From contig CP068257.2 in assembly GCA_009914755.4 (NCBI GenBank), positions 10,752,001 to 10,816,000 of the forward strand: a stretch of DNA of 64,000 nt. The letters run 5' to 3'. This DNA is from the human T2T-CHM13v2.0 reference genome, Homo sapiens. Of this stretch, positions 49,076 to 64,000 are shown piece after piece; the stretch's first letter is position 1, and each line of letters begins with the position of its first letter. Below the pieces are notes generated by a model, which made no database searches, was not told the DNA's origin, and saw only the letters and a program-made list of their open reading frames with translations. The position numbers and the translations under genes were made by a program.

Positions 49076-49712
49076 TGGAATCTCTGTTTATTCTCAACAT
49101 ATCAGTTGTGCCTTTCCTCAATTTGAAACTCTCACTATTGGCTATATTTGGGGGTGCCCTATTTCCCATCTCATAACTTATTTTAAGAAACACAGCATAA
49201 TAATGTGTGGGTTTGGGATTCAGTTTTTGAAAAAAAACACTGAGCCTTCAATGAACTTCCGGTCCATGTAAAAGCACACCTGTCTGCATGGCAGCACTAG
49301 GACCTCACAATGTGGATTGTGCCTTCACCCAGGAATGTTTATGCCCTATCGCCATGGTGATGGGATTAGAAATCTCCTGCCCTTGGTCATAAGTGCCACT
49401 GTCTGGGCTGAGTTTTTCAAAGGTCAGAGCAGATTGAAATTTTGTGGGTTCATTTTCCCTGATTTTGATTTTTCTTAAGGGGAACCTGTGTTCCTCCAAT
49501 CGAGGTATGTTCATACTGGCCTGTCAAATGCGATCTTTTCAAATTATTAGTTAATACTTTCAAAATTTGTTATTTAAAAAATTATCCTCTGTATTTTCCA
49601 TATGCAGTTATAAATATGTTTCATGGTTATGTTTTATTCCTCAATATACATATTTGATTATTTTACCAAGCAGAGTACCTTTGAAATTTTTCTTCATTTA
49701 AAAAATATGGAT

Positions 49713-50008
49713 CTTGGCTCAGGCCTGTAATCCCAGCAATTTCGGAGGCCAAAGCAAGAGGATCACAAGGTGAGGAGATCAAGACCATCCTGGCCAATAC
49801 AGTGAAGCCCTGTCTCTACTAAAACTACAAAAAATTAGCCAGGCGTGGTGGCAGCTGGTGCAGTCCCAGTGTGGTGTAGTCCCAGCTACCTGGGAGGCTG
49901 AGGCAGGACAATCGCTGGAACCCGTGAGGTAAAGTTTGCAGTGAGCCAACATGGCGCCATTGCACTCCAGCCTGTGAAACAGAACAAAACTCTGTCTAAA
50001 AAAAAATT
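49713..50008 (+). mobile_element. Alu (5'-truncated), array copy 1.
   Basis: tggctcaggcctgtaatcccagcaatttcggaggcc...gcactccagcctgtgaaacagaacaaaactctgtctaaaaaaaaa. Confidence 0.85.
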
Positions 50009-50997
50009 ATATATATATAATAAATGACATATGTAATATATAATATATATCATATATAATATGTCCTAATATATGATATATATAATATATATGCTATGTC
50101 ATTTACATATATTATATATAATATATATGACATAGAATATATATTATATGAAATATATAATTTATTGTATATAAAATGTTATATATATTATATATTATAT
50201 ATTATATATAATATATATGATAATATTATATAATATATATTACATATATGTCATTATATATATGATATATAATATGTGATATATAATATATATAATATAT
50301 TTCATATGTAATATATTATATATGATATATATTATATATGATATAAATTACATATATGATATATATTATATATTGTGTATGATATATGATATGTAATATA
50401 TATGACATATATAAAATATATATATTACATATATATTATAAGATATGTAATATATTATATTGTATTATATATCATAATATATATTATAATTATTATTTAA
50501 TTTAATATTATTATATATTATATAATATTATATTATTCTATATAATATATATATTATATGTTTAATATAATATATAATAATATAATGTACTTATGATATA
50601 TTATATATCATATATATTATATACTATATATTATATATAATATAAACTATATGTTATATATAATATATAGTATATATTATATACTATATATTATATATAT
50701 TATATATTATATATAATATAAACTATATGTATTATATATTATATAATATATAATGTATATAGTATATATTATATATTATTATATAATTATATAGAATTGT
50801 ATAAATATAATTATATATAATTATATAAATATAATTATATATAATTATACAATATATATAATTATATATTTTATATTATATTATATATAATATATATAAT
50901 ATCAGGATGCAGGATGTAAAAGGAAATATCTATAATATATATATTATATATATTTTATATTATATTATCTATAATTAAATATATATATATAAATATT
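50009..50997. repeat. TA-rich low-complexity tract, array copy 1.
   Basis: Irregular (TATATAAT/ATATA)n. A conserved motif atgcaggatgtaaaaggaaat is embedded ~90 bp before the next unit. Confidence 0.85.
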
Positions 50998-51562
50998 TGG
51001 GGGTGTCCTATTTCGAATCTAATAACTTATTTTAAGAAGCACAGCATAATAATATGTGGGCTTGGGATTCAGTTTTTGAAACAGAACAATGAGCCTTCAA
51101 TGACCTTCCTGTACATGTAAAAGCACAACTGTCTGCATGGCAGCAGTTGGACCTCACAATGTGGATTGTGCCTTCACCGTGGAATGTTTATACCCTATCG
51201 CCATGGTGATGGGATTAGGGATCTCCTGCCCTTGGTCCTAAGTGCCACTGTCTGTGCTGAATTTTTCGAAGGTCACAGCAGATTGAACATTTGTGGTTTC
51301 ATTTTCCCTGATTTTGATTTTTCTTATGGGGAACCTGTGTTGCTGCATTCAAGGTATGTTCATACTGGCCTGTCAAATGCGAACTCTTCAAATTACTAGT
51401 TAATGCTTTCAAAATATCCTATTTAAAAAATTATCCACTGTATTTTCCATATGCAGTTATAAATATGTTTCATGGTTATGTTTTATTAATCGATTTATAT
51501 ATTTGATTATTGTACCAAGCAGAGTACCTTAGAAATTTTTCTTCATTTAAAAAATATGTATC

Positions 51563-51855
51563 TTGGCTCAGACCTGTAATCCGAGCACTTTGGGAGGCCA
51601 AGGCAAGAGGATCAAAAGGTGAGGAGATCAAGACCATCCTGGCCAATACAGTGAAACCCTGTCTCTACTAAAAATACAAATAATTAGCCAGGCATGGTGG
51701 CAGCTGGTGTAGTCCCAGTGTGGTGTATTCCCCGCAACCTGGGAGGCTGAGGTAGGAAAATCGCTTGAACCCGTGAGGCAGAGATTAGAGTGAGCCAAGA
51801 TGGCGCTATTGCACTCCAGCCTGTGCAACAGAAGAAGACTCTGTCTGAAAAAAAT
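51563..51855 (+). mobile_element. Alu (5'-truncated), array copy 2.
   Basis: Same Alu as in copy 1 with a few substitutions. Confidence 0.85.
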
Positions 51856-60781: not shown

Positions 60782-61066
60782 TGGCTCAGGCCTGTAATCC
60801 CAGCACTTTTGGAGGCCAAGGCAAGAGCATCACAAGGTGGGGAGATCAAGACCATCCTGTCCAATACAGTGAAACGCTGTCACTACAGAAAATCCAAAAA
60901 ATTAGGCATGGTGGCAGCTGGTGTAGTCCCAGTGCGGTGTAGTCCCAGCTACCTGGGTGGCTGAGGTAGGACAATCGCTTGAACCCGTAAGGCAGATGTT
61001 GCAGTGAGCAAAGATGGCTCCATTGTACTCCAGCCTGTGCAACAGAACAAGACTCTGTCTAAAAAA
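60782..61066 (+). mobile_element. Alu (5'-truncated), array copy 6.
   Basis: Same Alu, with a small deletion (aaaattag|gcatggtgg). Confidence 0.85.
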
Positions 61067-62460
61067 GTTATATATAATATATATTATAAATTATATAATA
61101 TGCTTTATATGTAATATATATCACAAATATGTCATAATATATATTTATCATATGTCATGTTACATATATTATATATATTATATATTATGTAATATATATA
61201 ATACATATACATTATTATATATCTTATAGATGAAAATATATATATATTATATAACATAGTTATATGTAATATATAACATATCTATCATATATGATATATT
61301 ATATATATTTTATGTCATATATTTTATATATAATATAACATATAATTATATAATTATATATAATATAAATACTTATATAATCATATAATTATATACACAA
61401 TGTATATAATTATATAATTATATAGTTATATGTATAATTATATAACTATAAGTATATATAATACAATATATAACAAAATATATAATATAATATATAATAT
61501 ACAATATATGATACATAATATATATATTTAATATATCATAATATAATATATATTTTAATATTATGTATGTAACATATATTATGTGATATATAATATATAA
61601 TGTAATATGTGATATATAATATATAATATATAACAATATATGTTGATATAACATGAAATATATAATAAAATTATATATGTTAATATTATATAGTTATATA
61701 TAATATAATATATACATATATCGTAGTTATATATAATAAATATTTATATATACTATAATATAAAACATATAATATATATCATAGTATGTATTATATACCA
61801 TATATATTATATATCATATATTGTATATTATATATCATGTATTATATATCATATATATATCTGGTATAATATATATATCATATACCATATATTTAATATT
61901 ATATATTATATATAACATATGGTGTATATTACATATAATGTATGATATATATTATATATAATAATACATTACATATATATTATATATGTCATATATAGTA
62001 TATAACATATATGTAACAGCATATATAAGATATAACATGTAACATATATAATATATAACATACATATTATAATATATGTATTATACATATTAATTATTAT
62101 ATATAATATATAATATGTATTATATATGTCATAAAATATAATATGTGATATTGTATATATAATTATGTTATTACATATTATATATTATATTTATCTTAGA
62201 TATATATATTACATATAATGTATATTATATATTTAATGATTATTATACTTGTAATATATATGTGATATATAATATATATTATATATCATAAAATATAATG
62301 TATATTATGTCATCTTGTAGATATATAATAATTATATATTATCAATTATTGTATTACATATATAACATAAGATGCAGGACGTAAAACAAAATTATATATA
62401 TTTTAAAAATATATATATTATACTATATATTATTATGTATACAACATATATATATATATG
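61067..62460. repeat. TA-rich low-complexity tract, array copy 6.
   Basis: Irregular TA-rich repeats, with an agatgcaggacgtaaaacaaaatt motif near the end. Confidence 0.85.
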
Positions 62461-63021
62461 TGCATGCCCTATTTCCAATCTCATAACTTATTTTAAGAAG
62501 CACAGCATAATAAAGTGTGTGCTTGGGATTCAGTTTTTGAAACAAAACACTGAACCTTCAATGACCTTTCGGTCTATGTAAAAGCTCTCCTGTCTTCCTG
62601 GCAGCAGTTGGACCTCACAATGTGGATTGTGCCCTCACCCTGCAATGTTTATGCCCTATCGCCATGGTGACGGGATTAGGGATCTCCTGCTCTTGGTCCT
62701 AAGGGCCACTGTCTGTGCTGTGTTTTTCAAAGGTCAGAACAGATTGAACCTTTGTGGTTTTATTTCCCCTGATTTTGATTTTTCTCATGGGGAACCTATG
62801 TTGCTGCATTGAAGGTATATTCATACTGGCCTTTCAAATGCAAACTCTTCAAATTACTAGTTAATGCTTTCAAAACATAGTATTTAAAATGTTATCTGTA
62901 TTTTCCATATTCAGTTATAAATATGTTTCATGGTTATGTTTTATTCCTCAGATTATATATTTGATTGTTGTACCAAGCAGAGTACCTTTGAAATTTTTTT
63001 TCATTTAAAAAATATGTATCT

Positions 63022-63310
63022 TGGCTCAGGCCTGTAATCCCAGCACTTTTGGAGGCCAAGAGAAGGGGATCACAAGGTGAGTAGATCAAGACCATCCTAG
63101 CCAATACAGTGAAACGCTGTCACTACTAAAAATCCAAAAAATTAGCTAGGCATGGTGGCAGCCGGTGTAGTCCCAGTGCGGTGTAGTCCCAGCTACCTGG
63201 GTGGCTGAGGTAGGACAATCGCTTGAACCCGTGAGGCAGATGTTGCAGTGAGCAAAGATGGCGCCATTGTACTCCTGCCTGTGCAACAGAACAAGACTCT
63301 GTCTAAAAAA
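63022..63310 (+). mobile_element. Alu (5'-truncated), array copy 7.
   Basis: Same Alu. Confidence 0.85.
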
Positions 63311-64000
63311 AAGTTATATATGATATATATTACAAATTATATAATATGCTTCATATGTAATATAAAATATCATATATATTATGTCATATATATTTATCAT
63401 ATGTCATATATATTATATGTATTATATATATTACATAATGTATATAATATATAATAAATATACATTATTATATGTCTTATAGATGAAAATATATATTTAT
63501 ATATTATATAACATAGTTATATGTAATATAATATATAACATATCTATCATATATGATATATAATATATATATTTTATGTTATATATATTTTATATATAAC
63601 ATAGTATATATAATTATATAATTATATGTAATATAAATACTTGTATAATCATATAATTATATACATAATATAAATAATTATATATATAATTATATAGTTA
63701 TATGTATAATTATATAACTAAGTATAATAATATATAATATTATAATATATTAAATATAAAATATATAATATATAATATACAATATATGATACATAATACA
63801 TATGTTATTTAATATATCATAATATAATATATATTTTAATATGTATGTGACATATTTTGGTATATAATATATATTATGTTATATATAATATATATAATAT
63901 AATATACGAAATATATAATAACATTATATATGTTAATATATATTTATATATAATGTGATATGCAGTTACATATAATTGTATATTTATATATAATATAAAA
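63311..64000. repeat. TA-rich low-complexity tract, array copy 7, running to the window edge.
   Basis: Irregular TA-rich repeats. Confidence 0.85.

What the first reader, a model, noticed from the sequence alone, without database searches (positions are those of the whole stretch)
49151..64000. Macrosatellite-like array: at least 7 tandem copies of a composite unit of unique segment, Alu and a long TA-rich tract
The same ~570-bp unique sequence, the same 5'-truncated Alu with copy-specific mutations and a conserved linker (ttcatttaaaaaatatgtatcttggctcagg) recur seven times, at periods of 1847, 1901, 2162, 2877, 2283 and 2240 bp. Because the Alu is inside every unit, the unit was amplified after the Alu inserted, by unequal crossing-over or replication slippage. 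The period variation comes almost entirely from the TA-rich tracts, so these tracts are themselves hypervariable. The left edge of the array abuts an L1 3' end at 49075. The right edge lies beyond the window, so the true copy number is unknown. An array like this is a strong candidate for a copy-number-polymorphic macrosatellite, and for misassembly or collapse in short-read assemblies.
Basis: seen in the sequence. Interest (0 to 1): 0.75.

Follow-up and report, generated by a model that had tools for sequence, protein, structure and literature searches.

The report
Edge of a human satellite-1B array
The seven-copy repeat is real, but it is the diverged outer edge of a known human satellite (HSat1B, also called DYZ2 or HSATI), whose roughly 2.4-kb unit of a unique segment, a truncated Alu and an AT-rich tract was first described in 1984, so it is ordinary rather than new.

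Summary
Seven head-to-tail units start at 49143, 50992, 52894, 55055, 57932, 60213 and 62453. Each unit holds a 562-565 bp unique segment, a 289-295 bp Alu truncated at consensus position 13, and a tract of about 90% AT that is 984-2012 bp long. The cores are 88.5-95.4% identical.

This is not a new macrosatellite. The part order, part sizes and base composition match the published HSat1B/DYZ2 unit (HSATI 566±16 bp, Alu 290±2 bp, AT 1415±383 bp). Eight contigs from bacterial and metagenome assemblies, which I take to be human contamination, carry the same Alu junction 30-mer or HSATI segment. They are 96-97.5% identical (94.6-95.3% for the three partial ones) to the consensus of the window's units.

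With Alu as outgroup, the units form a ladder: c1/c2, then c3, then c4-c7, then the external copies. Physical order from the edge inward therefore matches evolutionary order.

The upstream layout fits the published map of the FAM230C-type pericentromeric duplicon. A reverse-strand EIF3F pseudogene lies about 4-5 kb upstream of the array and a CpG island about 17 kb upstream.

The most likely mechanism is unequal exchange or slippage after the Alu inserted, with length changes inside the AT tract. The family is already known and interest is low.

The parts
49076..49147 (+). Left junction. A 68-bp unique spacer follows the A-rich tail of an old L1 3' end. It ends in TATAT, which is the only homology with the end of the AT tracts. 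The array starts exactly at the AT-to-HSATI unit boundary (TATAT|TTGGGGGTGCC).
   Evidence: Sequence read. Junction contexts of all units compared. L1 identity shown.
49148..50991 (+). Unit 1: HSATI-like segment 49148-49712 (565 bp), 5'-truncated Alu 49713-50007, AT tract 50008-50991 (984 bp, 92.5% AT). One of the two most ancestral-like units (with unit 2).
50992..52893 (+). Unit 2: HSATI-like segment 50997-51561, Alu 51562-51856, AT tract 51857-52893 (1037 bp).
52894..55054 (+). Unit 3: HSATI-like segment 52899-53463, Alu 53464-53758, AT tract 53759-55054 (1296 bp). Intermediate between units 1-2 and units 4-7 in derived Alu states.
55055..57931 (+). Unit 4: HSATI-like segment 55060-55624, Alu 55625-55919, AT tract 55920-57931 (2012 bp). 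The tract is enlarged by weak internal tandem duplications with periods of about 65 and 101 bp.
57932..60212 (+). Unit 5: HSATI-like segment 57937-58501, Alu 58502-58796, AT tract 58797-60212 (1416 bp). It contains an internal 171-bp repeat of 3.7 copies.
60213..62452 (+). Unit 6: HSATI-like segment 60218-60779, Alu 60780-61068, AT tract 61069-62452 (1384 bp).
62453..64000 (+). Unit 7, cut by the window end: HSATI-like segment 62458-63019, Alu 63020-63314, AT tract 63315-64000 (more than 686 bp).

Best explanation
The region is the outer edge of an array of human satellite 1B (HSat1B, also called the DYZ2-type repeat, RepeatMasker 'HSATI', or the 2.4-kb HSATI/AluSc/AT-rich tripartite repeat). 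It is non-coding satellite DNA.

**Inferred history.** An AluS/Y-type element inserted next to a roughly 565-bp unique sequence. An AT-rich tract lay, or grew, at the Alu's A-tail. The three-part segment was then duplicated in tandem by unequal exchange or replication slippage, with TATAT microhomology at the left junction. Later expansion and homogenisation took place away from this edge, which left the oldest and most diverged units next to the unique flank. Unit length now varies through internal duplication and deletion inside the AT tract.

**Likely setting.** The upstream layout matches the published map of the FAM230C-type duplicon, which lies in acrocentric pericentromeres and in the chromosome 22q11 low-copy repeats (LCR22). 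In that setting such AT-rich tracts are known sites of rearrangement.

**Shown here:** the repeat anatomy, the single Alu origin, relatedness to external contigs that I identify as HSat1B from published descriptions, and the edge-to-interior ladder. **Inferred:** the amplification mechanism and the chromosomal location.
For: **Published anatomy matches.**
- DYZ2/HSat1B is described as an approximately 2.4-2.5 kb unit made of an AT-rich simple repeat, a 5'-truncated single-origin Alu about 20% diverged, and an HSATI segment.
- Published part sizes are AT 1415±383 bp, Alu 290±2 bp and HSATI 566±16 bp. The window has 984-2012, 289-295 and 562-565 bp.
- Published GC is 24% and CpG density is 1 per 150 bp. 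The window has 22.5% and 1 per 201 bp.
- RepeatMasker maps of GenBank X00470 and of FAM230C give the same order, HSATI then AluSc8 then (TA)n.

**External sequence matches.**
- A 25-nt HSATI pattern and the 30-nt Alu/HSATI junction retrieved eight contigs from bacterial and metagenome assemblies. The T2T-Y paper reports HSat1B as a common contaminant of such assemblies.
- The five contigs that span the whole core are 96-97.5% identical to the window consensus, and the three partial ones 94.6-95.3%. All eight are 92-95% identical to c4-c7 and 87-92% to c1-c3.
- One contig carries the published ACATACG junction motif.

**The AT tract is part of the unit.** The landmark in the AT tract is shared by all units and by the external contigs.

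**Ladder of derived states.** With Alu as outgroup, 26-30 derived sites are shared by all copies. At 9-10 sites c4-c7 and the external contigs are derived while some of c1-c3 stay ancestral. No site shows the reverse. Five sites are derived only in the external contigs. More divergent units at array edges are reported for DYZ2.

**Upstream context.** In FAM230C the array starts at nt 17010 and the reverse-strand EIF3FP2 lies at nt 11274-13870. Taking window 49148 as nt 17010 puts the pseudogene at 43412-46008. The EIF3F-like minus-strand ORFs lie at 44070-44951. The predicted gene start, about 32139, falls in the CpG-rich kilobase 32001-33000, which is 68% GC.
Against: - No reference HSATI or DYZ2 consensus, and no human genome, could be aligned directly. 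Family assignment rests on contigs that I infer to be human contamination and on published descriptions.
- The units are only 88-95% alike and 1.85-2.88 kb long. Yq12 DYZ2 units are more than 98% alike and mostly 2413 bp.
- The ACATACG junction motif is absent from the window's units.
- The first AT tract (984 bp) and the copy number (7 or more) differ from the GRCh38 FAM230C map, which has 395 bp and 3 copies. The exact locus, haplotype or even species is therefore not established.
Confidence: 0.93

Rival explanations
1. A locus-specific, previously uncharacterised macrosatellite that arose independently of known satellite families.
For: It has a kilobase-scale tandem unit with variable periods. 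No Rfam or other curated hit was found in the window.
Against: The same HSATI-like segment and the same Alu junction 30-mer occur in eight unrelated external contigs at 92-95% identity to c4-c7. The part order and sizes equal the published DYZ2/HSat1B unit.
Confidence: 0.03
2. A PATRR/TBTA-type element, that is, the palindromic AT-rich translocation-breakpoint structure of chromosome 22q11 low-copy repeats (LCR22). That element is derived from the same family but has a near-perfect palindrome and Alu fragments of about 155 bp.
For: It belongs to the same repeat family, and the upstream context is FAM230-like. The AT tracts hold many inverted repeats, and 51880-52200 folds better as DNA than its shuffles do (z = -4.8).
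Against: The best inverted repeats are only 70-84% complementary, with arms of 149 nt or less. All seven Alus are the full 289-295 bp form, not the roughly 152-155 bp 'AluYm1' fragment of TBTA units.
Confidence: 0.03
3. An assembly artefact, in which one unit was falsely reiterated or a larger array was collapsed.
For: AT-rich satellites are hard to assemble, and the array runs off the window.
Against: Each unit carries its own substitutions: 5-14 singleton differences in the Alu part alone. Each also has its own AT-tract length. The differences form an ordered ladder rather than noise.
Confidence: 0.01

Closest known systems
HSat1B / DYZ2 (human satellite I, 2.47-kb unit with one Alu per repeat; Frommer et al. 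1984; Altemose et al.; Rhie et al.; Hallast et al.)
   Same: It has the same three parts in the same order, with matching sizes, base composition and CpG density. The Alu is 5'-truncated and of single origin. The AT part varies in length. Units at array edges are more divergent. External family copies are 92-95% identical to c4-c7.
   Different: The window's units are far less homogeneous (88-95% against more than 98%). They vary more in length and lack the ACATACG junction motif. They retain ancestral Alu bases that the bulk copies have lost. They also abut unique, gene-like sequence rather than DYZ1.
HSATI/AluSc/AT-rich tripartite repeats in FAM230C (chr13) and the chromosome 22q11 low-copy repeats, LCR22 (Babcock et al. 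2007; Delihas 2018, PMC5906017)
   Same: The unit composition is the same. The array starts with a full HSATI segment. A reverse-strand EIF3F pseudogene lies about 3-6 kb upstream, and a CpG-rich putative gene start lies about 17 kb upstream, matching the published FAM230C coordinates.
   Different: There are 7 or more complete units here, against 3 in GRCh38 FAM230C. The AT-tract lengths differ. There is no TBTA-type unit with a short Alu, and no FAM230C 3' half within the window.
PATRR22 / Translocation Breakpoint Type A
   Same: It is derived from the same HSATI/Alu/AT-rich family. Its AT-rich DNA has hairpin or cruciform potential.
   Different: There is no near-perfect long palindrome here, and the Alus are not truncated to about 155 bp.
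Classical macrosatellites (D4Z4, DXZ4, RS447) and the TE-derived composite satellites described in T2T-CHM13
   Same: The unit is a kilobase-scale tandem repeat that includes a transposable-element fragment.
   Different: Those are unrelated in sequence. The units here are non-coding, extremely AT-rich, and part of a multi-chromosome satellite family.

Membership tests
HSat1B / DYZ2 (HSATI tripartite satellite) | Tandem unit made of an HSATI segment, one 5'-truncated Alu and an AT-rich tract, in that order | tested here: met
   Seven units have this order. The order matches the RepeatMasker maps of X00470 and FAM230C quoted.
HSat1B / DYZ2 (HSATI tripartite satellite) | Part sizes: HSATI about 566 bp, Alu about 290 bp, AT about 1.4 kb and variable; unit about 2.4 kb | tested here: met
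   The window has 562-565 bp, 289-295 bp and 984-2012 bp, with units of 1849-2877 bp.
HSat1B / DYZ2 (HSATI tripartite satellite) | Sequence similarity of the non-AT part to other family members | tested here: met
   Eight external contigs (L001-L008) are 94.6-97.5% identical to the window consensus and share the exact Alu/HSATI junction 30-mer. That these contigs are HSat1B is inferred. No direct alignment to X00470 or Dfam HSATI was possible.
HSat1B / DYZ2 (HSATI tripartite satellite) | Single-origin Alu, about 15-20% diverged from AluY/AluSc | tested here: met
   The Alu starts at consensus position 13, has a 16-bp internal duplication, and carries 26-30 derived sites shared by all units and by the external contigs.
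Yq12 DYZ2 proper (homogenised Y array) | Units more than 98% identical, mostly 2413 bp, with ACATACG at the HSATI/AT junction, alternating with DYZ1 | tested here: not met
   Units are 88.5-95.4% identical and variable in length. The junction motif is absent. The flank is unique, L1 and Alu sequence, not DYZ1.
HSat1B / DYZ2 (HSATI tripartite satellite) | Chromosomal location on the Y, on acrocentric short arms or pericentromeres, in LCR22 or on chr10 | not testable with these tools
   No human genome was searchable. The location is only inferred from the FAM230C-like layout.
FAM230C-type duplicon | Reverse-strand EIF3F pseudogene at gene nt 11274-13870, and HSATI array start at nt 17010 | tested here: met
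   The EIF3F-like minus-strand ORFs at 44070-44951 fall inside the predicted 43412-46008. A CpG-rich kilobase sits at the predicted start, about 32139. This is a match of layout only; sequence identity to FAM230C was not tested.
PATRR (palindromic AT-rich repeat) | Near-perfect palindrome several hundred bp long | tested here: not met
   The best inverted repeats have arms of 149 nt or less and are 70-84% complementary.
Copy-number-polymorphic macrosatellite | Copy number varies between haplotypes | not testable with these tools
   No population or pangenome data were available. The literature reports variable AT-tract length and poorly aligning HSat1B alleles on chr15 and chr21.

The most novel reading that the evidence does not exclude
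The window may preserve the birthplace of HSat1B, or a segmental copy of it.

- The array begins exactly at the unit boundary, against unique flank, with only TATAT microhomology.
- The units form a strict ladder from the edge inward (c1/c2, then c3, then c4-c7, then all external family copies). Units c1 and c2 still carry ancestral Alu bases that have been lost everywhere else sampled.

If this holds genome-wide, the satellite arose in situ inside a FAM230C-type autosomal duplicon and spread from there to the Y. That agrees with Babcock et al. 2007 and disagrees with the Y-to-acrocentric direction suggested in the T2T-Y paper.
Probability: 0.25. Interest if true: 0.4.

Novelty: already known. 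Interest (0 to 1): 0.15.

Why it matters
The main value is correct annotation. The array should be labelled HSat1B/HSATI rather than listed as a new macrosatellite.

Such arrays are sources of mis-assembly, poor short-read mapping and contamination in microbial databases. Their AT-rich tracts are linked in the literature to rearrangements of the chromosome 22q11 low-copy repeats (LCR22).

A secondary point is that this edge shows a clean fossil ladder of unit evolution. That ladder could help settle whether the satellite spread from an autosome to the Y or the other way round.

Tried and rejected
- **Rfam.** A scan of the whole window at gathering thresholds gave no hits.
- **Viral contigs.** A scan with the junction 30-mer gave nothing.
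- **Full-text search for sequences.** Searching papers for four conserved sequence strings gave nothing. The same kind of search in Delihas's supplements also gave nothing.
- **Primary papers.** Babcock 2007 and Frommer 1984 are not held, so their content is cited only through other papers and from my own memory.
- **Primers and probes.** I looked for published DYZ2 primers or probes to test in silico and found none in the held text.
- **CpG-island ORFs.** ORFs at 27-34 kb showed no recognisable coding exon. I ran no further search on them, because the locus layout was resolved from the literature instead.
- **Palindromes.** I looked for PATRR-grade palindromes and found none.
- **External contigs as Y-derived.** I considered whether all external contigs come from the Y. 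Only L002 carries the Y-consensus junction motif, and L006 has a non-satellite right flank. They are therefore a mix of family members of unknown origin.
- **Dating.** I rejected dating the duplications with a molecular clock. The family's Alu is far more diverged than ordinary AluS/Y copies, and mutation rates in these regions are reported to be elevated.
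Full report
**Observation.** The region 49143-64000 alternates between segments of about 36-50% GC and tracts of about 8-12% GC. BLAST of the first non-AT block against the window finds seven collinear + strand copies of an approximately 862-bp core. 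They start at 49143, 50992, 52894, 55055, 57932, 60213 and 62453, each with E = 0. The Alu part of that query matches the 19 other Alu hits in the window at only 68-78%. Pairwise core identity is 88.5-95.4%. Units c4-c7 form a 94-95% group, and c1-c3 are each about 89-92% identical to everything else.

Each unit has three parts:
- a 562-565 bp unique segment (36-38% GC);
- a 289-295 bp Alu with its A-tail;
- an AT tract of 984, 1037, 1296, 2012, 1416 or 1384 bp, or more than 686 bp in the cut seventh unit, at 89.5-92.5% AT.

**Anatomy.** The Alu begins at consensus position 13 in every unit and carries the same 16-bp internal duplication.

The AT tract is not just an independently expanding microsatellite. 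A non-AT landmark, GATGCAGGATGTAAAA, lies 73-86 bp before the start of each following unit in all six complete tracts. The roughly 650 bp next to the Alu tail align between units and with an external copy at 77-83%. The extra length in the long tracts coincides with weak internal tandem duplications, with periods of about 65 and 101 bp in unit 4, 171 bp in unit 5 and 125 bp in unit 7.

Inverted repeats are numerous but imperfect, with arms of 149 nt or less and 70-84% complementarity. One 321-nt stretch folds better as single-stranded DNA than its shuffles do (z = -4.8). There is no long near-perfect palindrome.

On the left, the array starts exactly at the AT-to-unique unit boundary. The sequence reads ...GGCTATAT|TTGGGGGTGCC, so only TATAT is shared with the ends of the AT tracts. 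Upstream lie a 68-bp unique spacer and the 3' end of an old L1.

**Identification.** The anatomy matches a classical human satellite.
[quoted passage not shown] It places the satellite on the Y, the acrocentric short arms and chr10, and notes that it is a frequent contaminant of bacterial assemblies.
[quoted passage not shown] They report 24% GC, one CpG per 150 bp and a highly length-variable AT part. Their part sizes are AT 1415±383, Alu 290±2 and HSATI 566±16 bp.
- The window's array has 22.5% GC and one CpG per 201 bp, and its part sizes match.
- Altemose et al. equate HSat1B with RepeatMasker 'HSATI'.
- Delihas (PMC5906017) gives RepeatMasker maps of GenBank X00470, the 1984 satellite I clone, and of FAM230C. 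Both read HSATI, then AluSc8, then (TA)n, the same order and orientation as here.

**Sequence test.** No human genome or Dfam library was available, so I used contamination as a source of family members. A 25-nt pattern that all seven units match retrieved two short contigs from bacterial assemblies. The 30-nt Alu/unique junction retrieved six metagenome contigs. The five full-core contigs are 96-97.5% identical to the consensus of the window's seven cores, and the three partial contigs 94.6-95.3%. All eight are 94-98.6% identical to one another, 92-95% to c4-c7 and 87-92% to c1-c3. Five contigs (L002, L004, L005, L006, L008) share the AT-tract landmark, and all seven that include the Alu part show the same derived Alu states, including the region of the internal duplication. 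One (L002) carries CGTATGT at the AT/HSATI junction, the reverse complement of the ACATACG motif that Hallast et al. report at that junction. The others and the window's units lack it. The array therefore belongs to the HSat1B family, but it is not a homogenised Yq12-type block.

**Evolutionary order.** The two give the same picture.
- 26-30 derived substitutions are shared by all seven units and all external copies, which indicates a single origin.
- At 9-10 sites, c4-c7 and the external copies share a derived base while one to three of c1-c3 keep the ancestral base.
- No site shows the reverse pattern.
- Five sites are derived only in the external copies.
- No site is derived in c4-c7 alone.

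The result is a ladder: c1/c2, then c3, then c4-c7, then the bulk family. Physical order from the edge inward equals branching order. This agrees with the published observation that divergent DYZ2 units accumulate at array peripheries. Together with the left junction sitting at the exact unit boundary, it leaves open that this duplicon is where the satellite first formed.

**Genomic context.** Delihas places three HSATI/Alu/AT units in FAM230C (chr13), starting at gene position 17010. He places the reverse-strand pseudogene EIF3FP2 at positions 11274-13870, and reports paralogous 5' halves on chr21 (EIF3FP1), chr2, chr14 and chr22. Setting window 49148 equal to position 17010 predicts the pseudogene at 43412-46008 and the gene start near 32139. 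The window has EIF3F-like ORFs on the minus strand at 44070-44951, and its most GC-rich kilobase (68%) is at 32001-33000. The layout therefore fits a FAM230C-type pericentromeric or LCR22 duplicon. The array differs from the GRCh38 FAM230C map, which has 3 units, a 395-bp first AT tract and a third unit with a 152-bp Alu. The exact paralogue, haplotype or species is therefore not established.

**Mechanism.** The data show that one composite unit was amplified after the Alu inserted, that the AT tract was already part of that unit, and that length variation lies inside the AT tract. I infer the following:
- amplification was by unequal exchange or replication slippage, the process proposed for DYZ2;
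- the tract was seeded at the Alu A-tail, since poly(A) tails are known to nucleate microsatellites (established knowledge);
- the AT tracts are structure-prone and so favour breakage and rearrangement, as documented for the related LCR22 and PATRR22 elements.

**Verdict.** The object is a member of a satellite family known since 1984 and now fully catalogued in T2T assemblies. The family is already known and interest is low. The only mildly new point is the clean ancestral-to-derived ladder at this array edge.

Noticed in passing
window 44070-44951 (- strand): Frameshifted ORFs that resemble eIF3 subunit F, recognised by eye from my memory of the protein. This looks like a processed EIF3F pseudogene. 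Its position relative to the array matches EIF3FP2 inside FAM230C as described in PMC5906017.
   Followed up: partly
window 32001-33000: A CpG-island-like kilobase (68% GC) lies about 17 kb upstream of the array, at the position predicted for the start of a FAM230C-like transcript. No convincing coding ORF was seen there.
   Followed up: partly
window 16975-17616 (- strand): A 213-aa ORF resembles a vomeronasal type-1 receptor (VN1R), judged from memory of that family. It is probably a pseudogene and overlaps an Alu at its 5' end.
   Followed up: no
window 20561-25776 (+ strand): A long L1 element with broken ORF1 and ORF2 reading frames, including ORFs of 439 aa and 237 aa. A second, older L1 3' end at 47889-49075 borders the array.
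   Followed up: partly
window 4579-6568: A large (GATA)n-derived complex repeat with a 283-bp higher-order period of about 5 copies at 80-82% identity. It explains the strong G-over-C skew at 4-6 kb.
   Followed up: no
window 499-931, 8673-9290 and 1468-2426: Three other tandem structures: a 110-bp repeat of 3.9 copies (92%), a 45/90-bp minisatellite of about 14 copies, and about 2.8 tandem Alu-containing 337-bp units (81%).
   Followed up: no
L006 2312-3690; L003 1-1664: Two external family contigs are not pure satellite. In L006, a short AT tract of about 200 bp is followed by about 1.1 kb of 43-51% GC sequence that is absent from the window; this may be an array right edge or an LCR22-type unit. 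In L003, the sequence upstream of the core is only moderately AT-rich and lacks the landmark.
   Followed up: partly
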